Source: an uncultured Clostridia bacterium
GTDB lineage: Bacteria > Bacillota > Clostridia > TANB77 > CAG-465
Direction of reading: 5' to 3'
Assembly: GCA_944388585.1 (NCBI GenBank)
Contig: CALXJI010000003.1
Location: 79,360 to 143,359 of the forward strand
DNA: 64,000 bases
A program made the position numbers and the translations under genes. A model generated the notes under the pieces. That model worked only from the letters and a program-made list of their open reading frames with translations. It was not told the origin of the DNA and did not search any database. The first letter of the stretch is position 1. Each line of letters begins with the position of its first letter. Positions 23,406 to 56,892 of the stretch are shown piece after piece.

Positions 23406-24077
23406 ATGATTAATAATAAAAGTGATACTATATTAAGATTTTACTTACTTGCAACTACTTTAAAAAATAAAATACGTCAAGGCTCAATATATTGGAATGT
23501 TACTGCCAAAAGAAGAGAAAGTATAGCAGAACATGTATATGATACATGTATATTAGCAATTGCTATCGATTCAGAATATAAACTAGATATAGATATAAAA
23601 AAAGTAGTAGAAATGCTTGTTATTCATGAACTCGAAGAAATAATTATAGGAGATATCACTCCCTTTGATAATATAAGCAATGAAGAAAAACTTCAAATGG
23701 GTAAAAAAGCTGTACTTGACATTCTTGATGGTTTAAAAAAAGAACAAGAATATATTGAACTTACTGATGAATTTAATTTAAAACAGACTAAAGAAGCAAA
23801 ATTTGCTTATTTATGTGATAAATTAGATTTTGATTTGCAAATGAAATTATATGCAGATCAAGGATATATTAAACTTGATCAAAAATCTAAAAGTCCAATT
23901 TTTAAAAACACTAAAGTACAAAACATATTAAAAAATGGTGCTAAATCCGCTCCTGATGTATTTTATAATTATGATGTAGAAAAATATATTAATTATCCAG
24001 AATTTAAAAATTTACTAGATTATGCATACTCTAATAATCTTAATGATTTACTGAATAATTATTTAAAAAATTTTTGA
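23406..24077 (+). CDS. HD-domain 5'-deoxynucleotidase (YfbR-like)
   Basis: ESIAEHVYDTCILA (H..D), IHELEEIIIGDITP metal-binding motifs as in YfbR; SD AAGAGGTG before the ATG at 23406 (ORF track begins at GTG 23397). Confidence 0.6.
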   Translation: MINNKSDTILRFYLLATTLKNKIRQGSIYWNVTAKRRESIAEHVYDTCILAIAIDSEYKLDIDIKKVVEMLVIHELEEIIIGDITPFDNISNEEKLQMGKKAVLDILDGLKKEQEYIELTDEFNLKQTKEAKFAYLCDKLDFDLQMKLYADQGYIKLDQKSKSPIFKNTKVQNILKNGAKSAPDVFYNYDVEKYINYPEFKNLLDYAYSNNLNDLLNNYLKNF

Positions 24078-24101
24078 GCTTGTTGTTTTCAAGCTCTTTT
24101 T

Positions 24102-24857
24102 TTATTTAAAAAATTCTTGTAATCCTATATATATCCCCCAAGCTAACTTTTCTTGATAATCTTCTTGCTCTAGTTTTTTTGCTTCTTCTTCATTAGATAA
24201 AAAGCCACATTCTACAGTTACAGTTGCATTTTCTACATGATCCATAATATAAATACCTTTTAATACCAATGGTACTCTATTATTAGGGGTGGAAATAGTA
24301 TTGTTTAACGAATCTTGTATATTTTTTGCAAGTCTTATACTTTCTTCATTTCCTTCTTGATAAAAAGTCTGCCAACCACTATATACATTTGATGGGTACT
24401 TATTAAGATGAATAGAGATAAAAGCATCTACATCTTCATCATTTCCTATCAATACTCTATTTTTTATATCACTTACCTTTTTTTCTTTTAAAGTTGTAGC
24501 ATCAGAAGAATATATTCCATTTTCATCGCTTCGAGTAAGATATACTACTCCCCCACTTTGCTCAATAAGTTTTTGAAGTTTTAATGCAATTTTTAAATTT
24601 ATTGCTTCCTCTGTCGTACCATAAACTCCAACTGCACCTTCATCTGGAAGCCCATGCCCCGCATCTATTACTACCACATGAGATGTTATAGGTGTAGAAT
24701 TTGTAGCTATTGTTTCTGAGCTTTTATTTAAAAATATTATACTAAGTAATATAATTAAAATTATTAAAAAAATGAAAAAAATTAATTTGTACTTTTTCAA
24801 AATATCACCTAGTATAATGTATGTCTTTTTTATTATTTTGATTACATCAAATAACAA
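24102..24857 (-). CDS. cwlD: N-acetylmuramoyl-L-alanine amidase (Amidase_3, CwlD-like, sporulation/germination)
   Basis: Signal/TM N-terminus; VVVIDAGHGLPDEGAVG...SIHLN motifs of Amidase_3; size and context fit CwlD. Confidence 0.7.
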   Translation of the reverse strand: MLFDVIKIIKKTYIILGDILKKYKLIFFIFLIILIILLSIIFLNKSSETIATNSTPITSHVVVIDAGHGLPDEGAVGVYGTTEEAINLKIALKLQKLIEQSGGVVYLTRSDENGIYSSDATTLKEKKVSDIKNRVLIGNDEDVDAFISIHLNKYPSNVYSGWQTFYQEGNEESIRLAKNIQDSLNNTISTPNNRVPLVLKGIYIMDHVENATVTVECGFLSNEEEAKKLEQEDYQEKLAWGIYIGLQEFFK

Positions 24858-24864
24858 TTAATAT

Positions 24865-24900
24865 ACAAAAAACAGGCGGGAGCAAAATTTCTCCCGCCTG
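24865..24900 (-). terminator. GC-rich intrinsic terminator of cysS
   Basis: CAGGCGGGAG-caaaattt-CTCCCGCCTG followed on the minus strand by TTTTTTG. Confidence 0.8.
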
Positions 24901-24915
24901 CCTTTCTGCTAACTT

Positions 24916-26385
24916 TTAAGCGTTATATAACGCTTTAAAATCCCAAACAACACCATCTCTGGTATCACTAAGAATAATTCCCTTTTTATCAAGCTCTGCC
25001 CTAATAGCATCAGCCTTCTGAAAGTCTTTCTCTTTCTTAGCTTCTGCTCTTAAAGCAATCTGCTCTTCTATATAGGAAACGTCAACAGAAGTTTTTTGCA
25101 AGTACTTATCCTTCATCTGCGAAATGAAGTCGTCTGGATTCTGTGTGAAAAGACCTAAGATACCGTATACCTCCTTAACATTAGCAAGGATTTTAGCGAC
25201 TGTGTTGGCAACTTTAACCCTATTTGCCTTCTTAGCTGTTTTCATGAGATTGTTAGCATATTTGAAAATACCATACAACTCAGAAATCGCCGCAGAAGTA
25301 TTGAAATCATCATCCATAACCTCAATAAATTTAGGAATGATGTTTCCGGAAATGTCGCCATCAACAGATTCGCTGTCAACGCTACCGCCATACTGAGAGA
25401 CAAAGTTCTCAATTGCTTTTATCACATTGTAAAAATAATACATGTGCTTTTCAGCAAGTGAAAAGTCTTTATCAAGCAGATCCATGTCAGATGTGTAATG
25501 CTTAGAAAACATAACATACTTGATAACTTCGTAGTTATACATCTTCAAAGCATCCCTGATTGTAAGCGAATTACCAAGCGACTTACTCATTTTCTCACCA
25601 TTGATTTTGATAAGTCCGCAATGCGACCAATATCTAGCAAACTGCTTGCCAGTATAAGCTTCGCTCTGTGCGATCTCATTTTCATGATGAGGAAATACTA
25701 AGTCCTTTCCACCGCCATGAATATCGATGGTTTCGCCCAAGTTGTTAAGAACCATAGCAGAGCACTCAATGTGCCAACCAGGTCTTCCAAGTCCCCAAGG
25801 TGACTCCCAAGAAATTTCGCCGGGTTTTGCCGATTTCCAAAGTGCAAAATCCAACGGATCATGTTTACCTTCCTCGACATCCTTTCTTACACCGTTTAAC
25901 AGTTCGTCAATACGACGTTTAGAAAGTTTACCGTACTCAGGAAAGCTTCTTACACTGAAATACACATCACCTTTATCGGTAGCATATGCATGCCCCAATT
26001 CAATGAGTCCCTGTACGAGACGGATGATGTTATCAATGTTTTCAGATGCTTTTGGTTTAATGTCTGCATCAGTAACATGCAGATTTCTCATGTCAAGCTC
26101 AGTTTCAGCAATTTGCTCTCTTGAAAATTCAAGTGCATCCTTGCCAAGCTTGTTTGCACTGTTGATGATTTTATCATCTACGTCTGTATAGTTGCGAACA
26201 TAAGTTACATCATACCCTCTGTAACGAAGGTAATCCGCAACCATTGCATAGGCAATTGCTTGCCTTGCATGACCAATGTGGCTCAAGTCATAGACTGTGA
26301 TACCACAAGCGTACATTTTGACTTTGTTTGGCTCGATAGGAATGAATTCCTCTTTCTTACCAGTCATTGAATTGTAAATTTTCAT
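24916..26385 (-). CDS. cysS: cysteine--tRNA ligase
   Basis: 489 aa; [18 protein letters not shown] (HIGH motif), KMSKSLGN (KMSKS motif); base composition far more GC-rich than neighbours. Confidence 0.9.
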
Positions 26386-26549
26386 TGTGGTTTTCCTCCT
26401 TTACTGTTAATAAAGTTGCAATATCAGTACTTGTCAAAAAAAGTTTTGAATTTAACATCACTTCAAAATTTTTTAGTGACTCATACTAAAAACTACGTCA
26501 TAATTATAGCATAATAGTTTACATATTTCAACAGTTTTATGTAAATTTT

Positions 26550-27464
26550 TTATTTATATAACTCTGTAGATAAATATCTTTCTCCAGAGTCTGGCAATAT
26601 AATTACAACTTTTTTATTATTTTTAGCATAATGTTTAGCTGCATCAATAACAGAACCAGAAGAAATTCCTACTAATAATCCCTCTTTTTGTGCCACTTCT
26701 CGTGAAGATTGGTAAGCTTCGTCAGTTGTAACTGTATATACCTCATCTATTATATTTCTATCTAATATCTCTGGTATAAAATTAGCTCCTATTCCTTGTA
26801 TTCCGTGTTGTCCAGCTATACCCTTAGAAATCAATGGAGATTCAGCAGGCTCTACTGCCACTATTTTTATATCTTTATTTTTTTCTTTTAAATATTTTGC
26901 AATTCCAGTCAAAGTACCTCCAGTTCCTACAGATGCGATAAATACATCTATATTTCCATCCATATCTTCCCAAATTTCAGGTCCTGTTGTCTTATAATGA
27001 GCATTAACGTTTGCAGGATTTGTAAATTGCCCAGCAATAATAGCTCCAGGAGTTTGTTTAAGTATTTCGTCCGCTTTATCTAAAGAACCTTGCATTCCAA
27101 GTGCTGCATCAGTTAAAACGACCTCTGCGCCATATGCCTTTAATACTTTAATTCTCTCTTCACTCATACTTGAAGGCATTGTTAAAATAACTTTATATCC
27201 CTTTAATCTTGCAATAAAAGCAAGACCAATTCCTGTATTACCACTTGTAGGTTCTATTATTGTTGCTCCAGGTTTTAAAATTCCTTTTCTTTCAGCATCT
27301 TCTATAATTTCAAGTGCTGCTCTATCTTTTACACTTCCAGCAGGATTATACTTTTCTAGTTTTGCATAAATTTCTCCTGTTAAATTATTTGTTTTTTCCA
27401 TATTATTAAGTCTTAGCATTGGTGTATTTCCAACCAATTCAATTAAATTTTGATATACCTTCAT
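26550..27464 (-). CDS. cysK: cysteine synthase A (O-acetylserine sulfhydrylase)
   Basis: 304 aa; NPAGSVKDRAAL PLP-lysine motif; GNTGIGLA; 12 nt downstream of cysE. Confidence 0.9.
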   Translation of the reverse strand: MKVYQNLIELVGNTPMLRLNNMEKTNNLTGEIYAKLEKYNPAGSVKDRAALEIIEDAERKGILKPGATIIEPTSGNTGIGLAFIARLKGYKVILTMPSSMSEERIKVLKAYGAEVVLTDAALGMQGSLDKADEILKQTPGAIIAGQFTNPANVNAHYKTTGPEIWEDMDGNIDVFIASVGTGGTLTGIAKYLKEKNKDIKIVAVEPAESPLISKGIAGQHGIQGIGANFIPEILDRNIIDEVYTVTTDEAYQSSREVAQKEGLLVGISSGSVIDAAKHYAKNNKKVVIILPDSGERYLSTELYK

Positions 27465-27476
27465 TTTTATTCCTCC

Positions 27477-28076
27477 TTATCTTTTTATTATTCTATCTGT
27501 AGGTACACCTACAGCAGTCACATCATCTTCAAGATTTTTAAGCACTACTGCACCAGCTCCTATTTTTACATTATTTCCTATTGTTATTGGTCCTAAAATC
27601 TTTGCACCTGCACCTATTAGAACATTATTTCCAATAGTTGGATGTCTTTTAACCTTATCTTTACCAGTTCCTCCAAGAGTAACTTGATGATAAATTGTAC
27701 AATCATCTCCTACAATAGCTGTTTCACCTATAACAACTCCCATACCATGATCTATAAATAATCTTTTACCAATTTTTGCACCAGGATGAATTTCTATACC
27801 TGTAAAAAATCTTCCAAGTTGTGAAACCAATCTAGCTAAAAAGAATCTATTATGTCTATATAGAAAATTACCTATTCTATAATATATTAATATATGAAAT
27901 CCTTGATATAGTAAAATAACTTCTAATAAACTTTTAACTGCTGGATCTTTTTCTTTTATATTTTTAGCATCTAAATATAATTGTTTTATTCCATAAAAGA
28001 AACCTTTTTCTTTTATTTTTAATTCCTTTTTTTCATTAGTAGATACTTTTATTAAACTCACTTTATTAATTTCCAT
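27477..28076 (-). CDS. cysE: serine O-acetyltransferase
   Basis: 199 aa; hexapeptide-repeat left-handed beta-helix ([28 protein letters not shown]); SD GAAGGAG before the ATG. Confidence 0.85.
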
Positions 28077-28104
28077 TACTATTACTCCTTCATTACTAAA
28101 AATA

Positions 28105-28141
28105 ACTACAAAAAAACTATGTAGTTGCCTACATAGTTCAT
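28105..28141 (-). terminator. leader (attenuator) terminator upstream of cysE
   Basis: Minus strand: AACTATGTAG-GCAA-CTACATAGTT followed by TTTTTTTG, 28 nt before the cysE SD. Confidence 0.7.
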
Positions 28142-28217
28142 ATATTTAATTAAAAAATATATTCTCTTTACTGTAGGCACGAAATTAGACACTCATACCT
28201 ACATTCAGATACGAGCG

Positions 28218-28262
28218 TTATTTCATACAACAACAGCAGTTTACGAATATATTTTTTTTCAT
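28218..28262 (-). CDS. candidate Cys leader peptide MKKNIFVNCCCCMK
   Basis: ATG 7 nt after SD AAAGGAGAG; codons TGC TGT TGT TGT in a row; lies between a consensus promoter and the leader terminator. Confidence 0.55.
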   Translation of the reverse strand: MKKNIFVNCCCCMK

Positions 28263-28303
28263 ATAAATTCTCTCCTTTTCTATATTATGCACTATTATAT
28301 AAT

Positions 28304-28332
28304 ATAATAAAAAAAAAGTCAATATTTTATTT
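28304..28332 (-). promoter_or_regulatory. sigma-A-type promoter for the cysE-cysK leader
   Basis: Minus strand: TTGACT - 17 nt - TATAAT, both consensus hexamers. Confidence 0.65.
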
Positions 28333-28350
28333 ATTGTTATTATAAAATTC

Positions 28351-28384
28351 AATAAAAACTAGGGGAGAATTAATTCTCCCCTAG
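28351..28384 (-). terminator. GC-rich intrinsic terminator of the CyuA-like gene
   Basis: CTAGGGGAGAAT/TAATTCTCCCCTAG perfect palindrome followed on the minus strand by TTTTTATT. Confidence 0.75.
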
Positions 28385-28412
28385 CCGACTACTTGATTTA
28401 CTGATTACGGTC

Positions 28413-29717
28413 TCATCTTACGATGATGTCCAAGATGCTCTTGTCCATGACCACAGCCGAGTCTTTCTCAATTTTTGCGTAATTCTGAACAGTCTGTTTG
28501 ATGTCGGAACTTACGATGCCAACGTCGTCTGTAATGCACCCCTTGCCACTAAGTGCAAGATCAGCCGCATACATTCCGGCGGAGACACACGCACACACCT
28601 TCATTGCACAGGTGCTTTTTGCACCGTCGCAAAACATACCAGACACAGTACCAAGCATATTCTGAATCGCATATTCTGCCTGCTTATAATCACCGCCAAG
28701 AAGATATACGATACCAGTAGTTGCTCCAGTACTTGCGATGACAGCTCCGCACAAATGAGAAAGAACATTAAGTTCTTTCTTAATGTACATTGCCGTCAAG
28801 TCAGCTACTGCCACAGCACGAAGCATCTTTTCTTCAGAAGCTCCGATTTCTTTTGCCACCTGTACAACAGGCAACGTGGTAGTAAGGCCCTGATTTCCGC
28901 TTCCAGTGCACGCCATTACAGCTAACGGTGCTCCACCCATTCTTGCATCAATTGCAGAAGTGGTCGTAGAGATAACCCTGGAGAAGATTGTATCTTCACC
29001 GAAAGGCTGAGCCTTTCCTACATTAAGTCCGTAGTTTGTAACTTTACCGTGCTCACTAATTGCAGTATTGAGTTCCACAGCTTTTTTGAAGATAGAGAGG
29101 TCATCAGTGGTATTTGCATACTCAAAGATTTCCTTCATGGTAATTTCTTCATACTCAGCTTTGCTGTCAGTGGTGCTGTCAGCTTCGCCTTCACTCATCT
29201 TAGAGTGAATAACTTCACCGTTCCGTTCGATGAGAACAACATTTGTGTGCTCATCTTCGATTACGACCCTCGCCATGTTGCAACAACAACAGCAACAACA
29301 GCTCTTCTTCGAAGAATCTTCCTTGCCATAAGCAGTGACCTGGATAAAAAGAGATTTCGGCGAATCGGTAATCTTCACCGACACATTATCCTTGGAAAAT
29401 TCATAGGCATAATCCTGATCCTCTTTTGCAACATTGCCAAGAAGTTCAAAACCATCCTCAGACTTTCCAAACAGGCCACCCTCTGCAGTCACGAATGCTG
29501 CGCCAACGTAGTTGGAGCCAGGTACACCAGCATCCATTGCATTCTTAGCCATATTAGGGCTAAGTTCAACTTCAAATCTGGTAGGCTCTTCGCCCAGTGC
29601 TTCTTTTGCAATAGCACTTGCATATGCAATTGCAATAGGCTCTGTGCATCCAGTGGATACTAACAAATACTTGTCCATCAGTTTCTGAATTTTGTGTTTC
29701 TGTTTCGTGGTAAGCAT
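28413..29717 (-). CDS. L-cysteine desulfidase-like (CyuA/YhaM, UPF0597, serine-dehydratase-like) with internal 7-Cys run
   Basis: STGCTEPIAIAYASAIA N-terminal signature of UPF0597/CyuA; ~435 aa from the ATG at 29717 (SD AAAGGAGGAAAAATT; the longer ORF to 29798 is unlikely); SCCCCCCCN insert; GC ~48%. Confidence 0.6.
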   Translation of the reverse strand: MLTTKQKHKIQKLMDKYLLVSTGCTEPIAIAYASAIAKEALGEEPTRFEVELSPNMAKNAMDAGVPGSNYVGAAFVTAEGGLFGKSEDGFELLGNVAKEDQDYAYEFSKDNVSVKITDSPKSLFIQVTAYGKEDSSKKSCCCCCCCNMARVVIEDEHTNVVLIERNGEVIHSKMSEGEADSTTDSKAEYEEITMKEIFEYANTTDDLSIFKKAVELNTAISEHGKVTNYGLNVGKAQPFGEDTIFSRVISTTTSAIDARMGGAPLAVMACTGSGNQGLTTTLPVVQVAKEIGASEEKMLRAVAVADLTAMYIKKELNVLSHLCGAVIASTGATTGIVYLLGGDYKQAEYAIQNMLGTVSGMFCDGAKSTCAMKVCACVSAGMYAADLALSGKGCITDDVGIVSSDIKQTVQNYAKIEKDSAVVMDKSILDIIVR

Positions 29718-29855
29718 AATTTTTCCTCCTTTACTACGAAAAACCATAACCAATTGCAACAAGTAATCAAACACCATGTGGATGTAATTACACCACATTT
29801 AAATATGTTTAATTACAAGAAGAATTTTATCACTATTACATTTATATGTCAACAC

Positions 29856-29876
29856 CAAAACGCAAATAATTTGCGT
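29856..29876. promoter_or_regulatory. perfect 10-1-10 palindrome AAACGCAAAT-A-ATTTGCGTTT in divergent intergenic region (candidate operator)
   Basis: Exact inverted repeat centred between the divergent CyuA-like gene and the 30006 gene; no upstream gene for which it could be a terminator. Confidence 0.4.
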
Positions 29877-30005
29877 TTTTGCTATTTTTATTCTTTTTTA
29901 GATACTTTTTTTTACATTTCTATTGATTTTTAAGCTTTTTTATGTTATATTAAAGTCCTGTAGCAGTTGGCTATTCTTATCTTATTAGAAAGGAAGGTTA
30001 TTGTC

Positions 30006-30425
30006 ATGTTATCAATTATGAACGTAGAACTCATTCAATTTCAACAAGCACGGTTCATGTCCGAAGATAATCATCGCTACCTCGAAAAGGGAAAGAAAAT
30101 AAAAAAACATCTTTCTCTTTCGGAAGATGAAGAAGACACTTTGAAAGCTCTTGAGGGCAAAGACCTCACTGCAAGATCATTGATTCTCTATCAAAAGCTT
30201 CTCATTAAAAAAGCACTCTACGAAGGTGTTAACAATGGGAGATTTCTGTATGAGATTGATTTTGGTGTTCCTCTTGAAGAAGAGGTAAAGCAGTGGTCAA
30301 GAACTTTCGGATATGCATTAAGTGCTAAATCTAACACAATTTGGGTTACTGGTCGTGACGGCTGGCAGTATGAGTCAATTGACTCTCCACCCCCTTCTAA
30401 AACGGAATTCACCTTGCTTTGGTGA
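30006..30425 (+). CDS. hypothetical protein (139 aa), GC-rich, divergent from the CyuA-like gene
   Basis: SD GAAAGGAAGG before the ATG at 30006 (ORF track starts at 29967); no known motif. Confidence 0.4.
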   Translation: MLSIMNVELIQFQQARFMSEDNHRYLEKGKKIKKHLSLSEDEEDTLKALEGKDLTARSLILYQKLLIKKALYEGVNNGRFLYEIDFGVPLEEEVKQWSRTFGYALSAKSNTIWVTGRDGWQYESIDSPPPSKTEFTLLW

Positions 30426-30463
30426 AATATTCCACAAAAAATGAATGCTTAGACAATCATTTC

Positions 30464-30492
30464 CACCGAGTAAAATCGGTGGTTTTTATTTA
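30464..30492 (+). terminator. intrinsic terminator
   Basis: CCACCGA-gtaaaa-TCGGTGG followed by TTTTTATTT. Confidence 0.75.
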
Positions 30493-30660
30493 TTCACTCT
30501 AATTCAATTTTTTTAATTACATTACATATTCTACTACTCTATATTATCATCTTACACAAATATTTATTAATATTATTTAATTTTAACTTTTATCTATTTA
30601 TATTATTATCATAAAAACGAATTAAAAACATATATTATAATATATATTTTAAAAAGGAGA

Positions 30661-31578
30661 ATGTATATGAATAATATGAATAATTCATATCCATCAATAC
30701 CATATGTTGGATATAAAAATAAAAACATAAAAATACCTATTACTTTCAAAGGCCAACATCAATCAGTTCAGCCTGGAATGGAATATAAAATGGAACCATT
30801 ACCTATATTTGAAAACCCAAATTATTCTCCAAGTGATAAACTAAAAAATAAAACAGTCATTATTTCTGGTGGAGATAGTGGAATAGGAAGAGCGATAAGC
30901 GTTTTATTTGCAAAAGAGGGAGCAGATATTGTTATTAACTATTTAAACGAACACGAAGATGCTAATTTTACAAAAAAAAGTGTAGAAAAACATGGTAGAA
31001 AGTGTTTACTTATTCCTGGAGATTTAAGAGAAGAAAAATTATCCCAAGAAATAGTAAATAAAACTATATCTACTTTTGGAAAAATAGATATTCTAATAAA
31101 TAATTGTGGAGTTCAATATCCTCAAGACAGTATTCTAGATATATCTAGCAAGCAATTAAAAGATACATTTGAAACTAATATCTTTACCTTCTTTTATTTG
31201 ACGAAAGCTGTTTTACCACATTTAAAAGAAAACAGTAGTATTATTAATACAACTTCAATTACAGCCTTCGACGGAAAAAAGAATTTAATAGACTACTCAG
31301 CTACAAAAGGAGCAATAACTGTATTTACAAAATCTCTTGCACTATCACTTGCAGACAAAAAAATTCGCGTCAATGCCGTTGCTCCCGGTCCAATATGGAC
31401 ACCTCTTATTCCGTCGTCTTTTAGCATAGAAGAAGTAGAAATATTTGGTACAGAAACTCCTCTTAAAAGAGCAGGTCAACCCTTTGAGCTTGCACCAGCA
31501 TATTTGTATCTTGCAAGTGATGAATCAAGATATGTAACAGGGCAAATATTACACGTAAATGGTGGGACTATTGTATAG
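30661..31578 (+). CDS. SDR-family oxidoreductase (YhdF-like)
   Basis: VIISGGDSGIGRAISVLFAKEGADIVINY Rossmann motif; NNCG; Y..K active-site spacing. Confidence 0.7.
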   Translation: MYMNNMNNSYPSIPYVGYKNKNIKIPITFKGQHQSVQPGMEYKMEPLPIFENPNYSPSDKLKNKTVIISGGDSGIGRAISVLFAKEGADIVINYLNEHEDANFTKKSVEKHGRKCLLIPGDLREEKLSQEIVNKTISTFGKIDILINNCGVQYPQDSILDISSKQLKDTFETNIFTFFYLTKAVLPHLKENSSIINTTSITAFDGKKNLIDYSATKGAITVFTKSLALSLADKKIRVNAVAPGPIWTPLIPSSFSIEEVEIFGTETPLKRAGQPFELAPAYLYLASDESRYVTGQILHVNGGTIV

Positions 31579-31605
31579 ATAATATACAATAAATATGCTA
31601 TAATA

Positions 31606-32082
31606 TTGTCGGTGATAGAATTGGAAGAATTAGTAAAATATTTTAAGAAATATAATCTAGAATCTAGAATTAAAACTTTTTCATCTTCTTCTGCAACAGT
31701 AGAACTTGCTGCTAAAGCTTTAAACTGTAATCCAGAAAATATAGCAAAGACTTTATCATTTGATGTAAACAATAATACAATATTAATAGTAACAGCAGGA
31801 GATATGAAAATAGATAATGCTAAATTTAAAAACAAATTCAATGTAAAGCCTAAAATGTTAAAGTTAGAAGAAGTCGAAGAAAAAACTGGATATCCTGTAG
31901 GAGGAGTTTGTCCTTTTAATCTAAAAAATAATATACATGTGTTTTTAGATTTATCTTTAAAAAGATTTGAAAAAATATATCCTGCATGTGGAACTCCAAA
32001 TAGTGCTATATTACTTACTATTGAAGAACTTGAAAAATACTCTGATTTTACTGAATGGATAGATGTATGCAAAAGAAAGTGA
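31606..32082 (+). CDS. YbaK/ProX-type aminoacyl-tRNA deacylase domain protein
   Basis: 158 aa; pattern of the YbaK/EbsC trans-editing domain (..VKTLSF..; GYPVGGVCPF). Confidence 0.55.
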   Translation: MSVIELEELVKYFKKYNLESRIKTFSSSSATVELAAKALNCNPENIAKTLSFDVNNNTILIVTAGDMKIDNAKFKNKFNVKPKMLKLEEVEEKTGYPVGGVCPFNLKNNIHVFLDLSLKRFEKIYPACGTPNSAILLTIEELEKYSDFTEWIDVCKRK

Positions 32083-32149
32083 ACCCAACTAGGTTCACTT
32101 TAAAATTACTTATTACAATAATGTATCATCAAAAATTAATATTTCTTAA

Positions 32150-32683
32150 TTAGCTTTTATATACATCTTTTCCATATCTATTCTTTATTTTTATCTTTAT
32201 CCTTCTTATTCTTGTTCTAATAGTCTTTTCATTAGTATTTAAAATCGTTCCTATTTCTGCAGTAGTATATCCACGAGAAAAATACAAAATAACAATTGTT
32301 TTTTCGTCTTTAGACAAAAAATCTATTAAATTAAATAAATCTATATTACTATCTACTTCAATATATTCATCATTAGTTTCAAAGTAATTATCACACTCTA
32401 AATCGTCATAAGAATAAAAATTTCTCATATTATTTCTCATTATATTATTACAATTATTTATTAAAACCCTAGTTATCCATCCATTAAAAGAGCCATCATT
32501 TCTTAAAGTATTTATGTTTCTAAATGTTTGATATATTGTCTCTTGAACAGCATCTTTTATATCTTCATCTTGATCCAATCTACTTTTTGCAATAACAAAT
32601 AGCTTTCTTTCATACAACTCAATTAATTTAGCAAAAGCATCCTTATCTCCTTCTTTTGATCTTTTAATTAAATTCTCTTCCAT
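32150..32683 (-). CDS. ECF-type RNA polymerase sigma factor
   Basis: Region 2 DAVQETIYQTF; region 4 GYTTAEIGTILNTNEKTIRTRIRRIK. Confidence 0.7.
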   Translation of the reverse strand: MEENLIKRSKEGDKDAFAKLIELYERKLFVIAKSRLDQDEDIKDAVQETIYQTFRNINTLRNDGSFNGWITRVLINNCNNIMRNNMRNFYSYDDLECDNYFETNDEYIEVDSNIDLFNLIDFLSKDEKTIVILYFSRGYTTAEIGTILNTNEKTIRTRIRRIKIKIKNRYGKDVYKS

Positions 32684-32778
32684 ATTTTCCCCTCTTCTTA
32701 TTCACACGAAAATTATATCATAAAAAATAGGATTTAGGTATTTCATTCCTAAATCCCAATAATGATTTTAGAGTAAAT

Positions 32779-33546
32779 TTATTCATTAGTGATATAAGTA
32801 TCTATATACTCTTGTAATGATTCGAACTCTCCAGTTTCATTATTTTTTATCTCCAATGAAGATATATCTAGATTCTGAACAGCAACCCTTGATTTATTTT
32901 GTTGTATATTTAGTTCTCTCAAACCATTTCCAAGTCCTATTACCTCGTATTGCTCATCTGAATTTTCTTTTAAATATACTAAATAGCTCTTTCCAGATTC
33001 TATTTCTATATCACCAGATATCAATACATTAATGTAAGTATTATCTAAATCAATACTTGTATTATTCTCAGAACGTAGGTATTCACGCTTTAAATTAGCT
33101 GCATCCGGTTGAGTTTCTTCCCAATCTGACATTTTCATTATTCCACCTGGTTTTGTATACTCTATAACTTGTCCTTGTTCTAATTCTCCTTTTAAAACAG
33201 TATTAATAAGCATTTTACCATCTGTCATTCCAATTAAACTTCCTTCAGGATCAGCCCCATCTAATGAAATAACAGTTGCAAGTGCAATACAATCAGCATC
33301 TTCACCTAACTTATTTGGTGTAAATTCTTCTACTAAGCAAAGCTGTGTAACACAATCATATGTTGAATTTTTAATTTCATCTGTAATATAACTTGTTATC
33401 TCATATGTCTGCTCCTTAATATTTGAATTTTCTTTAACCTCACCATATAGATTGTCATTTTTTAATTTATATCCTACTAAAACAGTAAAATATAATAGAA
33501 CAATAACACTTGCCACAACAACAACAATCTTTTTTTTCATAAACAT
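32779..33546 (-). CDS. membrane-anchored extracytoplasmic protein (signal-anchor N-terminus)
   Basis: MFMKKKIVVVVASVIVLLYFTVLVGY signal anchor; remainder hydrophilic, acidic; sits upstream of the ECF sigma gene. Confidence 0.35.
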   Translation of the reverse strand: MFMKKKIVVVVASVIVLLYFTVLVGYKLKNDNLYGEVKENSNIKEQTYEITSYITDEIKNSTYDCVTQLCLVEEFTPNKLGEDADCIALATVISLDGADPEGSLIGMTDGKMLINTVLKGELEQGQVIEYTKPGGIMKMSDWEETQPDAANLKREYLRSENNTSIDLDNTYINVLISGDIEIESGKSYLVYLKENSDEQYEVIGLGNGLRELNIQQNKSRVAVQNLDISSLEIKNNETGEFESLQEYIDTYITNE

Positions 33547-33702
33547 TCCCCCTCTTTAAATAACTTACACCTAATAAAATTTGAGCTAAATATAAAATGT
33601 ACAAACTCAATATTGCCATTTCTTTAACTGCATCTACTATAATAGACGGAAAATTTATGAAATTTGTTTCAAAAAACAAAAAAATCTTAAAAATTACAAT
33701 TT

Positions 33703-34188
33703 TTAAGACTCTTTTTGTATTATTTTGTCATTTTTTATTACAAAATGTTTAATATTATTTGTTAATCCTTTTATTATTTCTTGCTTTAGAAAATCTGGTT
33801 TAAACTTATCTAATTGATTAATAGAGATCCATTTAAATTCTAGCAAAGTACCATCTTGTTCTTTCTTAATATAGTCTTTCAAATCTACTTTATCCTTAAA
33901 TTCTAATAAATAATATAATCCTAATTCATGACATTTTACTCTTTTACTATAAAAAAAATTTTCTGTTACATATAATAATCTTTTTATACTTACATTCATG
34001 TCTGTTTCTTCCTTAAACTCTCGTATAATAGCTTCTTTGCTATCTTCATTTAGCTCAACATGTCCACCAGGTAAGCAAAAAAAATCATTATCATTTATTT
34101 TTACACATAGTAATTTATTATTATTTATTGCTATACCAGATACCCTATATTTAAATCTGATATTATATTTTTCTAATTCAATATCCAT
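33703..34188 (-). CDS. NUDIX hydrolase
   Basis: Nudix box GGHVELNEDSKEAIIREFKEETDMNV (G.5E.7REUXEEXGU). Confidence 0.8.
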   Translation of the reverse strand: MDIELEKYNIRFKYRVSGIAINNNKLLCVKINDNDFFCLPGGHVELNEDSKEAIIREFKEETDMNVSIKRLLYVTENFFYSKRVKCHELGLYYLLEFKDKVDLKDYIKKEQDGTLLEFKWISINQLDKFKPDFLKQEIIKGLTNNIKHFVIKNDKIIQKES

Positions 34189-48164: not shown

Positions 48165-48704
48165 ATGCTAAATAATATAAAAAAGTATGAAAAAATGTCT
48201 ATTGCTACGTCAATACTTTTAATTGTATTTGCATTATGCTTAATTTTTAGTCCACAAGCATCGCTTAATTTTATGGTAATTGTTATTGGCGTATTTCTTG
48301 CTTTATCTGGTATAGTACATATAGTGTCATATTTTACTTCAGATAAAGAATTTAGATCAATAAGTACTGAACTTATAGAAGGAACTATATATACAATTTT
48401 GGGCATATTTTTAATTTTTAAACCAACTATATTAAACGAGTTTTTAGCAATAATAATTGGTGCTTGGCTTATAATTCAATTTATAATAAAATTCCAATTT
48501 GCTTTTAATTTAAAATCACTTTCATCTCCTGCATGGGGACTAATGCTTTTAAGTGCCATTGGACATTTAATTTTTGGTATATTGATTTTAATAAATCCTT
48601 TCGCATCAATGGTAACTCTTACAACAATAGCAGGTATAATTTTACTTATATCTGAAATATTTAATATAGTAGAATCAATATATTTATTATCTAGAAAACA
48701 ATAA
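48165..48704 (+). CDS. HdeD/DUF308-family membrane protein
   Basis: Six hydrophobic segments with repeating G..L..G pattern typical of DUF308. Confidence 0.5.
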   Translation: MLNNIKKYEKMSIATSILLIVFALCLIFSPQASLNFMVIVIGVFLALSGIVHIVSYFTSDKEFRSISTELIEGTIYTILGIFLIFKPTILNEFLAIIIGAWLIIQFIIKFQFAFNLKSLSSPAWGLMLLSAIGHLIFGILILINPFASMVTLTTIAGIILLISEIFNIVESIYLLSRKQ

Positions 48705-48723
48705 AACTAGGAAGATATTCTTC

Positions 48724-49368
48724 CTAGTTTTTTAATATATAATTTAAGTCTTCTATAGCTAAGTCTATATTTCTCATTCCATTACCAATGGGATAAAATA
48801 CAGGATATACACTATATTCATTTTCTTTAATACTCATTCTAAACTCTTGTTTTCTAACAGACTTTACACAAATTTTCTGATTTAAAAAAATACTACTTAC
48901 TTGATTTCCAAAAACTATAATTTTTCTAGGCTTTACAATATCTATTTCTTCATATAAAAGATCTAAATATTGCTTTAGCACTCTATCTGGCAAAGGTCTT
49001 GCATCTATTTGTGTACATTTTCCAAGATTAGTAACATATATTTTATTTCTACTTAATATGTCATAAACATTTTTTGCAAAATCTTCTGTCCAATCATTAG
49101 GCTTTTTAGATAATATATCATCAAATAAATCTTTATCGATTATCCCTATGCTATAAAACAACTTCCAAATATTCTTTGTTCCAATCCAAGGAGCTCTAAT
49201 TCCTTTCCATTCTTTTGTTGATGCAATATTTTTTCCTGTAGGGTTCATAAATACAAAACATACATCTGGATTATTTTTACATCCTCCATTATATATAGAA
49301 CAAAGAGTTGGATCACCATATTCTAATTGTAACTTATCATAATATTTATTTAATTCTTCTACTCTCAT
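48724..49368 (-). CDS. uracil-DNA glycosylase-superfamily protein (putative)
   Basis: CFVFMNPTG (motif-1-like, compare GMNPG/GINPG) and YVTNLGKC; weak call. Confidence 0.35.
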   Translation of the reverse strand: MRVEELNKYYDKLQLEYGDPTLCSIYNGGCKNNPDVCFVFMNPTGKNIASTKEWKGIRAPWIGTKNIWKLFYSIGIIDKDLFDDILSKKPNDWTEDFAKNVYDILSRNKIYVTNLGKCTQIDARPLPDRVLKQYLDLLYEEIDIVKPRKIIVFGNQVSSIFLNQKICVKSVRKQEFRMSIKENEYSVYPVFYPIGNGMRNIDLAIEDLNYILKN

Positions 49369-52627: not shown

Positions 52628-53377
52628 ATGAAAAAAGATTTAATAATTCATGAAGCTCCAAAATCTCCCGTTTCAGAAGCTATAAGAACGCTAAGAACTA
52701 GCATTACATATAAAATGACTAAAACTCATGATAAAGTATTTTTAATTACTAGTTCATCAATTGAGGAAGGTAAAAGTTGGGTTGTATCAAATCTTGCTAT
52801 TGCTTTTACACAATCCAAACAAAAAGTTTTAATAATAGATGCAGATTTAAGAAAAGGTAGACAAGCTAACATTTTTTCATTAAATAGTTCTTATGGATTT
52901 TCTAATGCTTTAGATAATTCGAAAATCTCTAATGATAATAATAGTCTAGATGAAGAAATTCAAAAAGCAATTTTCAAAACACAAATAGATAATTTATTTA
53001 TAATGCCTTCAGGAATGTTTCCATCAAAGCCATCTGAACTTCTTGAAAATGAGCAATTTGATATTATTTTAGAAAACTTAAAAGATAAATTCGACATTAT
53101 ACTACTTGATGCTCCACCTATTAATATAGTTACTGATAGTATGATTCTTTGTAACAAAGCAGATAGTGTAATAATTGTATGTGCAATCGGAAAAACTAAA
53201 AGAGATTCATTAGTTGAAACAAAAAAGAAAATCAAAAATATGGGCGGAAATATTTTAGGTGTAGTAATAAATAAAATGCCAATAGATAAACTAAAAGAAT
53301 ACACTAAAGATTATACTAAATACAATAATAATAAAATTATAAAAATTGAAAATCCAAAATTAAAAAATATTTCCTAA
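52628..53377 (+). CDS. capsular tyrosine-protein kinase (BY-kinase, CpsD/CapB-like)
   Basis: Walker A ITSSSIEEGKSWVVSNLA, Walker A' IIDADLRKG, Walker B ILLDAPP; SD AAGAGGTGG before the ATG at 52628; no C-terminal Tyr cluster was recognised. Confidence 0.7.
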   Translation: MKKDLIIHEAPKSPVSEAIRTLRTSITYKMTKTHDKVFLITSSSIEEGKSWVVSNLAIAFTQSKQKVLIIDADLRKGRQANIFSLNSSYGFSNALDNSKISNDNNSLDEEIQKAIFKTQIDNLFIMPSGMFPSKPSELLENEQFDIILENLKDKFDIILLDAPPINIVTDSMILCNKADSVIIVCAIGKTKRDSLVETKKKIKNMGGNILGVVINKMPIDKLKEYTKDYTKYNNNKIIKIENPKLKNIS

Positions 53378-53405
53378 AACAGCTTTTTAAGCTGTTTTTT
53401 ATTTT
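53377..53405 (+). terminator. intrinsic terminator
   Basis: AACAGCTT-ttt-AAGCTGTT followed by TTTTTTATTTTT. Confidence 0.75.
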
Positions 53406-53518
53406 TATTTTTATTTATGTCTAAATTTGTTGACTTTTGTAATGCACTGTGATAAATTCAATATGTACTTTATGTACAAGATAGCATTAAATAATTATTT
53501 ATGTTAGGAGGATTCAAA

Positions 53519-55375: not shown

Positions 55376-55385
55376 ATCATTTTGC

Positions 55386-55420
55386 GCACTGTAGGTGTAC
55401 CTACAGTGCGTTTTCTTTTT
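55386..55420 (+). terminator. intrinsic terminator of the GH13 gene
   Basis: GCACTGTAGGT-GT-ACCTACAGTGC followed by TTTTCTTTTT. Confidence 0.8.
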
Positions 55421-56862: not shown

Positions 56863-56892
56863 AAATCCAAATTGAAAATCAATTTGGATTTT

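What the first reader, a model, noticed from the sequence alone, without database searches (positions are those of the whole stretch)
28351..30492. GC-rich ~2.1-kb cassette next to the cys operon: CyuA-like cysteine desulfidase with a 7-Cys run, divergent small gene and a perfect palindrome between them
Sampled windows here run at ~45-50% GC against ~25% elsewhere. Both ends are GC-rich terminators (CTAGGGGAGAAT..; CCACCGA..TCGGTGG). The 435-aa gene carries the UPF0597/CyuA signature STGCTEPIAIAYA (L-cysteine desulfidase family; the E. coli member is cysteine-inducible). Embedded in it is SCCCCCCCN, encoded by tgttgttgctgttgttgttgttgc at ~29277-29300. That is a heptacysteine tract in a cysteine-degrading enzyme, which could couple its own translation to Cys-tRNA availability or add metal/Fe-S ligands. 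The divergent 139-aa gene has no recognisable HTH. The 10-1-10 palindrome AAACGCAAAT-A-ATTTGCGTTT (29856-29876) sits in the shared promoter region, where it cannot be a terminator for any upstream gene, so an operator is more likely. Combined with the leader-peptide attenuator and the GC-rich cysS nearby, this locus looks like a mosaic cysteine-homeostasis island.
Basis: partly seen in the sequence, partly recalled or inferred. Interest (0 to 1): 0.7.

Follow-up and report, generated by a model that had tools for sequence, protein, structure and literature searches.

The report
Poly-cysteine cysteine desulfidase with orphan partner
A GC-rich two-gene module in a very AT-rich gut Clostridia genome encodes an iron-sulfur cysteine-degrading enzyme that carries a run of seven cysteines, paired with a small protein of unknown fold; the enzyme is a known kind, but the cysteine-rich loop, the partner protein and the stable foreign base composition are not described.

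Summary
Region 28357-30490 is 40% GC against 26% elsewhere (GC3 0.42 and 0.35 against about 0.12). It is bounded by two intrinsic terminators.

Gene 1 (28413-29717, minus strand, 434 aa) is a CyuA/CdsB-family [4Fe-4S] L-cysteine desulfidase. All cluster ligands and catalytic residues are kept, and its best structural match is M. maripaludis CyuA.

The seven-Cys run (29280-29300) is real. Independent assemblies of close relatives carry 5, 6 or 7 in-frame TGY codons. The run sits at a disordered beta-hairpin tip. That tip is a short turn in ordinary CyuAs and carries 3-6 Cys (...RCCN) in most of this subclade.

Gene 2 (30006-30425, 139 aa) belongs to a tiny orphan family. Its model is confident but matches no solved structure. 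It is found only beside this CyuA subclade.

The palindrome (29857-29879) abuts the -35 of a near-consensus promoter. Its core GCAAAT-N-ATTTGC recurs in the same intergenic region of diverged relatives.

The 'island' reading is only partly supported. There are no mobility signs, the module predates a roughly 11% lineage split, and its GC content is not decaying.

The role of the Cys run, the regulator role of gene 2 and the cause of the composition remain inferred or unexplained.

The parts
28357..28386 (-). Intrinsic terminator of the desulfidase gene (perfect 13-nt arms at 28359-28384, then a T run). It lies 35 nt upstream of the -35 of the cys-operon promoter.
   Evidence: Terminator scan; palindrome list; conserved in L001-L004.
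28413..29717 (-). CDS of a 434-aa CyuA/CdsB-family [4Fe-4S] L-cysteine desulfidase.
   Evidence: PF03313 at 7e-48. PDB sequence hit to M. maripaludis CyuA at 3e-28. Foldseek TM 0.71-0.84. Invariant C24, E26, R259, N275, C323, C363, C370 and K373.
29280..29300 (-). (TGY)7 tract encoding Cys140-146, at the tip of the beta-hairpin between strands 124-133 and 146-154.
   Evidence: Sequence. AlphaFold pLDDT below 50 at residues 138-144. 5, 6 or 7 copies in relatives. Loop comparison across 120 homologues.
29718..29817 (-). 5' untranslated leader of about 100 nt with a long hairpin; AAGGAGG ribosome-binding site at 29725-29731.
   Evidence: Fold of -25.5 kcal/mol, z = -3.15. Outer stem kept in L003, L004 and L084, but covariation is weak. 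The transcription start is inferred from the promoter match.
29824..29852 (-). Sigma-70-type promoter of the desulfidase gene: TTGACA, 17 nt, TG-n-TAAAAT (11 of 12 matches).
   Evidence: Promoter scan. The same promoter is present in L003, L004, L084 and L005.
29857..29879 (.). Perfect 11-1-11 palindrome AAAACGCAAAT-A-ATTTGCGTTTT, centred about -51 from the inferred start. Candidate operator.
   Evidence: The core GCAAAT-N-ATTTGC is unique in the window. It is present once in the equivalent intergenic region of L001-L005 and L084.
29923..29951 (+). Weaker promoter-like site for the small gene (TTGATT, 17 nt, TG-n-TATATT; 9 of 12 matches).
   Evidence: Promoter scan. This is only a consensus match.
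30006..30425 (+). CDS of a 139-aa orphan protein without cysteines. It is the conserved neighbour of this CyuA subclade.
   Evidence: 24 clusters in 5.8 billion proteins and 11 representatives in 1.84 billion. Adjacent to the desulfidase in every complete context. AlphaFold pLDDT 91. No structural match. 19 synonymous against 15 non-synonymous codon differences to L004.
30463..30490 (+). Intrinsic terminator of the small gene (CCACCGA...TCGGTGG, then a T run).
   Evidence: Terminator scan.

Best explanation
This is a two-gene module for regulated cysteine breakdown. It is long resident in a lineage of very low-GC uncultured Clostridia and sits directly upstream of the cysE-cysK-cysS operon.

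Gene 1 makes a CyuA/CdsB-type enzyme. This enzyme uses a [4Fe-4S] cluster held by three cysteines, plus a Cys/Glu catalytic pair, to split L-cysteine into pyruvate, ammonia and sulfide. Family, fold and residues are shown; activity is inferred.

The heptacysteine run is the local form of a cysteine-rich insertion at the tip of a flexible beta-hairpin in the N-terminal domain. Most members of this subclade carry 3-6 cysteines there, with a conserved ...CCN end. In this lineage the insertion has turned into a TGY trinucleotide repeat that slips in frame between 5, 6 and 7 copies (shown). The loop is therefore an accessory feature rather than part of the catalytic core. Its most likely use is as thiolate ligands for a metal, a second cluster, or the free iron of the catalytic cluster (inferred).

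Gene 2 encodes a 139-aa protein of a new, tiny family that travels only with this enzyme subclade (shown). It most likely acts as the dedicated transcription factor, binding the GCAAAT-N-ATTTGC palindrome next to the -35 of the strong desulfidase promoter (inferred).

The neighbouring cys operon is switched on through a CCCC leader-peptide attenuator when Cys-tRNA is short. The locus therefore pairs synthesis and disposal of cysteine.

The foreign base composition is real, but it is old and stable. It is not the trace of a recent insertion.
For: Enzyme:
- PF03313 at 7e-48.
- phmmer hit to the M. maripaludis CyuA (MmCyuA) chains 9he0/9fsl at 3e-28.
- AlphaFold model with pLDDT 89.7. Its best PDB matches are MmCyuA (E 4e-21, TM 0.71-0.84), then L-serine dehydratase 4rqo.
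- Counterparts of MmCyuA C23, E25, R223, N239, C287, C329, C336 and K339 (PMC12647591) are invariant in a 53-sequence alignment, as C24, E26, R259, N275, C323, C363, C370 and K373.

Cys loop:
- Tract lengths of 7, 6 and 5 in the window, L003 and L001/L002/L004.
- Loop table over 120 homologues. Relatives at 36-42% identity mostly have none (0-4 Cys). Members at 50-57% have 0-6, most of them 3-6, typically GGxCKIEGCCxCRCCN or xRCCN.
- The hairpin tip is disordered in the model.

Partner protein:
- Homologues at 30-99% identity lie within 2 kb of the desulfidase in L001, L002, L004, L005, L007-L011 and L084-L089. None is found in 72 loci with more distant CyuAs or in 80 cysE loci.
- The family is tiny.
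- The model is confident, with pLDDT 91.

Operator:
- The promoter matches 11 of 12 consensus positions, and the palindrome lies 4 nt upstream of its -35.
- The motif occurs 7 times in the close set, against 0.65 expected.
- Its centres lie at about -51, -62 and -102.

Context: CCCC leader ORFs precede cysE or cysK in all lineages examined.

Age of the module: nucleotide identity is 91.5%, against 85-89% for the flanks, and recent substitutions are balanced.
Against: - No experiment supports activity, regulation or metal binding.
- No shared palindrome was found in lineages where the partner is only 30-36% identical. In some of them the partner gene is convergent rather than divergent.
- The palindrome also matches the terminator pattern. 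It resembles the AAAA-stem-TTTT bidirectional terminators found elsewhere in the window.
- Some subclade members with the partner gene have no Cys loop (L005/P0010). The loop and the partner are therefore not functionally tied, and the loop is dispensable.
Confidence: 0.6

Rival explanations
1. The seven consecutive Cys codons act as an in-ORF sensor of charged tRNA-Cys. When cysteine is scarce, ribosomes stall in the tract and the cysteine-degrading enzyme is not completed. The same shortage de-attenuates cysE-cysK-cysS through the CCCC leader peptide.
For: - The organism and all sampled relatives place 3-5 consecutive Cys codons in leader ORFs upstream of cysE or cysK. Stalling at Cys runs is therefore a plausible signal in this group.
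- The tract in the enzyme is longer than the one in the leader.
- Precedents exist. Polycysteine short ORFs attenuate cysteine operons in mycobacteria by ribosome stalling (bioRxiv 10.1101/834739). Serine codons inside sinR lower SinR levels (PMC3862929, abstract).
Against: - Most of the subclade has spaced cysteines (C-x5-CC-x-C-x-CC), not runs, which points to a protein-level role first.
- The tract length drifts between 5, 6 and 7, and some members have no Cys there at all.
- Stalling would be an unavoidable side effect whether or not it is selected.
- There are no expression data.
Confidence: 0.2
2. The small protein is not a transcription factor. It is instead an accessory subunit, chaperone or inhibitor of the desulfidase. 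The palindrome is then either bound by a host regulator, for example a Fur-family-like 7-1-7 site, or serves as a transcriptional insulator or terminator between the two genes.
For: - No DNA-binding fold was detected.
- Co-occurrence with one enzyme subclade is strict, regardless of gene orientation.
- The palindrome fits the terminator pattern and has A/T-run flanks like other terminators in the window.
- The shape CGCAAAT-N-ATTTGCG is a 7-1-7 inverted repeat with an AAT-N-ATT centre, as in Fur, PerR and Zur boxes. This comparison rests on my own knowledge and was not tested.
Against: - The motif core is conserved in L084 and L005 at different positions and without the flanking runs or a stable stem. 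This argues for protein recognition, not RNA structure.
- In L084 the motif overlaps the likely -35 of the small gene, as an autoregulated factor would (read by eye).
- No transcript from either predicted promoter crosses the palindrome.
Confidence: 0.3
3. The stretch is a recently acquired horizontal-transfer cassette or island from a donor of roughly 45% GC.
For: - GC3 and codon usage match a 40-45% GC genome.
- Boundaries are sharp, at two terminators.
- cysS and an amylase-family gene in the window are also compositional outliers.
- The neighbours on the small-gene side differ between lineages: SDR, NUDIX or plsC.
Against: - The module shares synteny with, and is as diverged as, its flanks in the 92% lineage.
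- There is no AT-ward decay.
- Every homologue above 48% identity whose context was read sits in a low-GC host, with the same GC excess.
- No donor, plasmid or phage match was found.
- No integrase, tRNA or convincing target duplication was found.
Confidence: 0.12
4. The poly-Cys run or the GC jump is an assembly or sequencing artefact.
For: Trinucleotide repeats are error-prone. One relative (L001) has a 1-nt deletion in an A run that truncates the gene.
Against: Four independent assemblies from different samples carry the same module in the same place. All tract variants are in frame.
Confidence: 0.02

Closest known systems
L-cysteine desulfidase CyuA of Methanococcus maripaludis / M. jannaschii MJ1025 (PDB 9FYI, 9FSL, 9HE0, 9HE2; PMC12647591)
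   Same: Same two-domain fold (TM 0.71-0.84). The three cluster cysteines, the catalytic Cys/Glu pair and the Arg, Asn and Lys of the active site are conserved. The interdomain linker is disordered in both.
   Different: - Only about 23% identity.
- The window protein has Ala where MmCyuA has Cys289, the non-conserved fourth cluster ligand.
- It carries a 13-residue insertion with seven cysteines at a hairpin that is a short turn in MmCyuA.
E. coli / Salmonella cyuPA with the activator CyuR (DecR/YbaO) (PMC9040844)
   Same: A CyuA-type desulfidase paired with a dedicated factor, and a catabolic or detoxifying role for excess cysteine.
   Different: - No CyuP importer is adjacent.
- The neighbouring protein has no Lrp/AsnC or any other known DNA-binding domain.
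- The module is embedded in cysteine-synthesis genes rather than next to tdc.
Clostridioides difficile CdsB with the sigma-54 activator CdsR (PMC5767170)
   Same: A clostridial cysteine-inducible desulfidase of the same family.
   Different: The promoter here is sigma-70 type with 11 of 12 matches. No TGGC-N8-TGCW element lies in the intergenic region. No enhancer-binding protein is nearby.
Polycysteine leader ORFs (mycobacterial Cys 'ribulon', bioRxiv 10.1101/834739; actinobacterial Cys leaders, PMC1262725) and the sinR serine-codon sensor (PMC3862929)
   Same: Runs of codons for one amino acid couple ribosome progress to the supply of that amino acid. The adjacent cysE leader MKKNIFVNCCCCMK is a direct analogue.
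   Different: The heptacysteine tract lies in the middle of a 434-aa enzyme, not in a leader. No alternative RNA structure depends on it, and a sensing role is untested.
Extra cysteine ligands in the family: Cys289 of MmCyuA and the C-terminal Cys458 of Legionella L-serine dehydratase (PMC12647591)
   Same: Precedent for a non-conserved cysteine reversibly capping the substrate-binding iron of the cluster.
   Different: Those are single residues next to the active site or on the C-terminal tail. Here the cysteines sit on an N-domain hairpin whose distance to the cluster is unknown.

Membership tests
CyuA/CdsB L-cysteine desulfidase (UPF0597, Pfam SDH_alpha) | Sequence membership in PF03313 and similarity to characterised CyuA | tested here: met
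   PF03313 at 7.1e-48 over residues 199-430. MmCyuA chains at 3e-28 over residues 11-422.
CyuA/CdsB L-cysteine desulfidase (UPF0597, Pfam SDH_alpha) | Three strictly conserved cysteines that hold the [4Fe-4S] cluster (MmCyuA C287, C329, C336) | tested here: met
   C323, C363 and C370 align to them and are invariant in 53 sequences.
CyuA/CdsB L-cysteine desulfidase (UPF0597, Pfam SDH_alpha) | Catalytic Cys/Glu pair (GCTE; MmCyuA C23, E25) that distinguishes desulfidases from serine dehydratases, plus R223, N239 and K339 | tested here: met
   C24, E26, R259, N275 and K373 are invariant. Their role is taken from PMC12647591.
CyuA/CdsB L-cysteine desulfidase (UPF0597, Pfam SDH_alpha) | Two-domain CyuA fold | tested here: met
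   AlphaFold pLDDT 89.7. Foldseek best hits are 9fyi and 9he0, E 4e-21, TM 0.71-0.84.
CyuA/CdsB L-cysteine desulfidase (UPF0597, Pfam SDH_alpha) | Cluster-dependent conversion of L-cysteine to pyruvate, ammonia and sulfide; dimer | not testable with these tools
   Needs anaerobic purification and assay.
CyuR (Lrp/AsnC) or CdsR (sigma-54 enhancer-binding) type regulators of desulfidase genes | Recognisable HTH/AsnC or AAA+ sigma-54 interaction domain; -24/-12 promoter for CdsR | tested here: not met
   The 139-aa protein has no Pfam, NCBIfam or PHROG hit. No structural match. No sigma-54-like element in 29718-30005. The promoter is sigma-70 type.
Genomic island / mobile cassette | Integrase or transposase, flanking tRNA or direct repeats, presence/absence polymorphism, similarity to plasmids or phages | tested here: not met
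   - The neighbouring ORFs that were scanned (cysE, SDR, tRNA-editing protein) have ordinary metabolic or housekeeping domains, and none is an integrase or transposase.
- The nearest tRNAs are 10 kb away.
- Only AT-rich 72-82% repeats flank the module.
- No plasmid or phage match.
- No empty site was found.
- Deviant composition, the only island-like feature, is met.
Intrinsic terminator (for the 29857-29879 palindrome) | Stable GC-containing stem followed by a U run, placed downstream of a transcribed gene | tested here: inconclusive
   The pattern matches on the plus strand: 10 pairs, 3 of them G-C, tail TGCTATTTTT. However, it lies upstream of both predicted promoters. Its core, not its stem and tail, is what is conserved in L084 and L005.
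Operator of a dedicated transcription factor (for the palindrome) | Dyad symmetry, fixed relation to a promoter, conservation with the factor across species, demonstrated binding | tested here: inconclusive
   Dyad symmetry and promoter proximity are met. The core is conserved where the partner is at least 55% identical, but at -51, -62 and -102. No common motif occurs in the 30-36% lineages. Binding is not testable here.
Leader-peptide / codon-run amino-acid sensor (for the poly-Cys tract) | Run of codons for the regulated amino acid whose translation speed changes a downstream outcome through alternative RNA structures or loss of product | not testable with these tools
   The codon run is present. 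No alternative structure is linked to it. A true Cys leader lies next door. An effect on expression needs experiments.

The most novel reading that the evidence does not exclude
In these Clostridia two poly-Cys codon runs would form one ribosome-read circuit. A CCCC leader peptide turns cysteine synthesis on when Cys-tRNA is short. A 5-7 codon run inside the desulfidase ORF blocks completion of the cysteine-destroying enzyme under the same condition. Transcription of that enzyme would be set by a regulator with a previously unseen fold, and all three non-biosynthetic genes (desulfidase, partner, cysS) would be kept at a foreign GC content by selection rather than by recent transfer.
Probability: 0.15. 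Interest if true: 0.75.

Novelty: new variant of a known kind. Interest (0 to 1): 0.5.

Why it matters
CyuA-type desulfidases are major sources of gut hydrogen sulfide and control cysteine toxicity. Their structure was solved only in 2025, and the role of non-conserved cysteines at the cluster is an open point.

- **Cys-rich hairpin.** A natural subclade with a cysteine-rich, length-variable hairpin offers a ready-made test of whether extra thiolates cap or extend the cluster, or bind another metal.
- **Partner protein.** The strictly co-inherited 139-aa protein has a confident model but no known fold. It is a candidate for a new cysteine- or sulfide-responsive regulator, or for a new enzyme partner.
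- **In-ORF sensing.** A poly-Cys leader peptide sits next to a poly-Cys tract inside the opposing enzyme. This makes codon-run sensing within an ORF directly testable.
- **Composition.** Three cysteine-related genes hold 40-45% GC inside 26% GC genomes without decaying. This cautions against reading every compositional outlier as recent transfer, and it is itself unexplained.

Tried and rejected
- **Empty site.** A metagenome scan with CysE returned 80 loci, the best at 78% identity. None had the desulfidase or the partner gene, and none was syntenic, so no insertion site could be compared.
- **Donor.** No plasmid or phage similarity was found. The best homologues outside the syntenic lineage are at most 73% identical and again sit in low-GC hosts.
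- **RNA families.** No Rfam family reached threshold in 24000-33000. Only chance-level hits overlap the terminator.
- **Flanking direct repeats.** Only AT-rich 22-26 nt matches at 72-82% identity were found, and I judged them to be chance.
- **Sigma-54 promoter.** None is present in the intergenic region.
- **5' UTR.** The hairpin is stable. With five sequences the covariation term is not supportive, so I make no riboswitch claim.
- **Codon-choice idea.** I considered that high GC3 reflects avoidance of AAA/GAA/CAA codons, which depend on thiolated tRNAs, under sulfur shortage. I rejected it because cysE and cysK, which are needed in that very condition, have the lowest GC3 (0.055 and 0.125). 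The shift also affects all codon families.
- **Operator in distant lineages.** No common motif was found.
- **Outgroup polarisation.** Polarising substitutions with the 73% outgroup is unreliable because of saturation. I repeated it with the 92% lineage as outgroup.


Full report
**Observation**

The stretch is as described. Windows of 400 nt run at 45% GC across 28401-29600 and 39% across 30001-30400, against 23% on both sides. The whole of 28351-30492 is 40.4% GC against 25.7% for the rest of the window. The 285-nt intergenic part is host-like at 26%.

Third-position GC is 0.42 for the large gene and 0.35 for the small one. The mean of 60 ORFs is 0.14, and most genes lie at 0.09-0.16. cysS (24916-26385, GC3 0.38) and an alpha-amylase-family gene (53501-55375, GC3 0.27) are the only other outliers. 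The deviation affects every codon family, for example C-ending codons at 21% against 3%.

Both ends scan as intrinsic terminators, at 28386-28357 on the minus strand and 30463-30482 on the plus strand.

The large CDS is 28413-29717 (434 aa), with AAGGAGG 7 nt before the ATG. The Cys tract is TGT TGT TGC TGT TGT TGT TGC at 29280-29300, encoding Cys140-146. The palindrome has 11-nt arms at 29857-29879.

**The enzyme**

The protein matches Pfam SDH_alpha (7e-48). It also matches the only solved L-cysteine desulfidase, Methanococcus maripaludis CyuA, by sequence (3e-28).

An AlphaFold model built on 53 homologues (pLDDT 89.7) finds MmCyuA as its best structural match (E 4e-21, TM 0.71-0.84). Legionella L-serine dehydratase is second.

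The paper describing that structure (PMC12647591) defines several functional residues:
- Three strictly conserved cluster cysteines: C287, C329 and C336.
- A catalytic Cys23/Glu25 pair that separates desulfidases from serine dehydratases.
- R223, N239 and K339 around the substrate.

All have invariant counterparts here: C323, C363, C370, C24, E26, R259, N275 and K373. I therefore file it as a member of the family. Activity itself is inferred.

**The poly-Cys tract**

In the model the run sits at the tip of a long beta-hairpin of the N-terminal domain (strands 124-133 and 146-154). The tip has pLDDT below 50.

I compared this segment in 120 homologues.
- Relatives at 36-42% identity (Desulfosporosinus, Fusobacteriaceae, Bacillus testis and others) have a short turn, and most have no cysteine in it.
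- One clade has 20-40-residue Thr/Ala/Ser/Gly-rich inserts at the same place.
- Most members of the 50-57% subclade have a 10-17-residue insert with 3-6 cysteines. Typical forms are GGxCKIEGCCxCRCCN or xRCCN, and the last two cysteines and the Asn are the most constant.
- A few subclade members (P0006, P0010, P0011, P0047, P0048) have none.
- Only the window's lineage has a homopolymer: seven in the window, six in a 98% relative (L003), five in three 92% relatives (L001, L002, L004), and CCSCCCC in a 73% relative.

All variants are in frame and come from independent assemblies, so the tract is real and behaves as a slipping trinucleotide repeat.

A spaced Cys-rich motif therefore came first, which favours a protein-level use (thiolate ligands). 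The loop is dispensable for the family's chemistry.

Both solved family members use a non-conserved extra cysteine to cap the substrate-binding iron: Cys289 in MmCyuA and the C-terminal Cys458 in the Legionella enzyme. The window protein has Ala at the Cys289 position. A flexible Cys-rich loop could supply such a cap. I could not measure whether it can reach the cluster.

**The small gene**

The 139-aa product has no Pfam, NCBIfam or PHROG match, either alone or as a 24-member family.

The family is tiny. It has 24 clusters among 5.8 billion proteins and 11 representatives among 1.84 billion in a full profile search.

It is a real protein. Codon differences to the 92% lineage are 19 synonymous against 15 non-synonymous. 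Identity falls to 30% across lineages with invariant F12, R16, E20, E42, Q63, N76, G78, W97, G102, Y103 and a C-terminal Trp. The AlphaFold model is confident, with pLDDT 91 and pTM 0.81: three helices followed by a small alpha/beta unit.

Its distribution is the strongest clue. A profile of the family finds a copy within 2 kb of the desulfidase in every complete locus of the subclade at 48% identity or above (L001, L002, L004, L005, L007-L011, L084-L089). It finds none in 72 loci with more distant CyuAs or in 80 cysE loci. The gene is divergent in most lineages and convergent in L009, L011 and L088. It also accompanies a desulfidase without the Cys loop (L005), so the partner and the loop are independent features.

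**Intergenic region**

The desulfidase has a near-consensus promoter (TTGACA, 17 nt, TG-n-TAAAAT; 29852-29824). A leader of about 100 nt follows, folding into a long hairpin (z = -3.15). The same promoter is present in the relatives.

The palindrome lies 4 nt upstream of the -35, centred near -51. It is also upstream of the weaker promoter-like site of the small gene (29923-29951). No predicted transcript crosses it.

Its core GCAAAT-N-ATTTGC, allowing one mismatch, occurs as follows:
- once in the 64-kb window;
- once, exact, in the same spot in L001-L004;
- once in the same intergenic region in L005 (centre about -62) and in L084 (centre about -102, overlapping the likely -35 of the small gene);
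- 0.65 times expected in shuffles of the close set, and five one-mismatch hits in the remaining 0.9 Mb of loci held at that point.

The flanking A and T runs and the stem stability are not conserved in L005 and L084. This argues for protein recognition rather than RNA structure.

Two caveats apply. The element also fits the terminator pattern and looks like the bidirectional terminators elsewhere in the window. No common motif was found in lineages where the partner is only 30-36% identical.

An operator is therefore the better reading. That the small protein is the factor binding it is an inference from linkage.

**Context**

The module lies directly upstream of cysE-cysK-cysS. That operon has its own promoter (28322-28294), a leader ORF MKKNIFVNCCCCMK (28262-28218) and a terminator (28139-28114) with alternative pairings.

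Equivalent poly-Cys leader ORFs precede cysE or cysK in all ten lineages examined. In every relative the desulfidase-partner pair sits among cysE, cysK and cysS, although the other neighbours differ.

Known CyuA systems are arranged differently. E. coli has cyuPA with the Lrp/AsnC-type activator CyuR and Crp (PMC9040844). C. difficile has cdsB with a sigma-54 activator (PMC5767170). Neither regulator type, no importer and no sigma-54 element is present here.

**History of the composition**

The host is an uncultured low-GC Clostridia lineage (MAG CALXEQ01, 92% identity).

Against the 92% lineage, the module is 91.5% identical in DNA, the native flanks are 85-89%, and cysE is 97.7%. The module was therefore already in place in the common ancestor, and the locus is mosaic in divergence.

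A gene at GC3 0.42 drifting toward the host's 0.12 should show about five GC>AT changes for each AT>GC. With the 92% lineage as a close outgroup, the window and L003 branches show 10 against 13. Fixed differences between the two groups are 39 against 36.

Homologous modules in all sampled relatives are also GC-enriched (GC3 0.21-0.52 against 0.09-0.20 in their flanks). cysS is enriched too, and L005 carries one low-GC and one high-GC cysS.

No donor, plasmid or phage match was found. There is no integrase, flanking tRNA or convincing direct repeat. No empty site could be found, because the metagenome collection holds no close relative.

The anomaly is therefore real, old and apparently maintained. 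Why it is maintained is unexplained.

**Mechanism and rivals**

Most likely (0.6) this is a regulated cysteine-disposal module. It comprises a CyuA-type desulfidase with an accessory Cys-rich hairpin and a dedicated new-family factor acting at the palindrome, set next to an attenuator-controlled synthesis operon.

The rivals are:
- The tract is a translational Cys-tRNA sensor (0.2). This is physically plausible because the neighbouring leader uses only four Cys codons, and it has precedents. But spaced cysteines in relatives and variable length argue that sensing is at most secondary.
- The small protein is an enzyme partner and the palindrome belongs to a host factor or is an insulator (0.3).
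- The module is a recent horizontal-transfer cassette (0.12).
- The finding is an artefact (0.02).

**Verdict**

The enzyme is a known kind. The Cys-rich, length-polymorphic hairpin, the strictly linked orphan protein with its conserved dyad site, and the stable foreign composition make this a new variant worth a modest follow-up. Interest is 0.5.

Noticed in passing
window 28114-28322 (minus strand); also L004, L005, L007-L009, L011, L084, L086, L088: A cysteine leader-peptide attenuator lies upstream of cysE. It has the promoter TTGACT-17-TATAAT, the leader ORF MKKNIFVNCCCCMK (28262-28218), and alternative pairings around UGUAGG/CCUACA ending in a terminator at 28139-28114. Equivalent leader ORFs with 3-5 consecutive Cys codons precede cysE or cysK in all ten lineages examined. 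No Rfam family matches.
   Followed up: partly
window 24916-26385; L005 1458-2924 and 7101-8573: cysS is a compositional outlier like the module (GC3 0.38). This holds in relatives too (0.27-0.44). L005 carries two cysS genes, one host-like (GC3 0.12) and one GC-rich (0.44).
   Followed up: partly
window 28413-30425 versus L002-L004: The GC-rich genes are not drifting toward the host's AT richness. Recent substitutions are 10 GC>AT against 13 AT>GC, and fixed differences are 39 against 36. No explanation so far accounts for a stable 44% GC gene in a 26% GC genome.
   Followed up: partly
window 27477-28076 versus L002 6265-6864: cysE is far less diverged from the 92% lineage (97.7% nt; 3.5% of codons differ synonymously) than its neighbours on either side (85-92% nt; 14-24% of codons). 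This suggests recombination or unusual constraint at this gene.
   Followed up: no
window 29718-29817 (minus strand): The roughly 100-nt leader of the desulfidase mRNA folds into a long hairpin (-25.5 kcal/mol, z = -3.15). The outer stem GUAAUUAAAC/GUUUGAUUAC is kept in L003, L004 and L084 with wobble changes, and other lineages have different long hairpins at the same place. Covariation support is weak.
   Followed up: partly
window 53501-55375: The alpha-amylase-family gene has GC3 0.27, about twice the background. It is followed by a GC-rich perfect palindrome at 55385-55410. It may be another foreign gene.
   Followed up: no
L001 10001-10915 (column 878 of alignment A6): One relative has a 1-nt deletion in an A run of the desulfidase gene, giving a 304-aa product (P0004). 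This is either a pseudogene or a long-read homopolymer error.
   Followed up: no
homologues P0084, P0101, P0104, P0109-P0118: Another CyuA clade has 20-40-residue Thr/Ala/Ser/Gly-rich low-complexity inserts at exactly the same hairpin tip. This tip is a general insertion hot spot of the family.
   Followed up: no
window 33685-33708, 48703-48731, 53376-53398, 56861-56893: Perfect palindromes of the form AAAA-stem-TTTT sit at gene ends, often between convergent genes. They look like the genome's standard bidirectional terminators.
   Followed up: no
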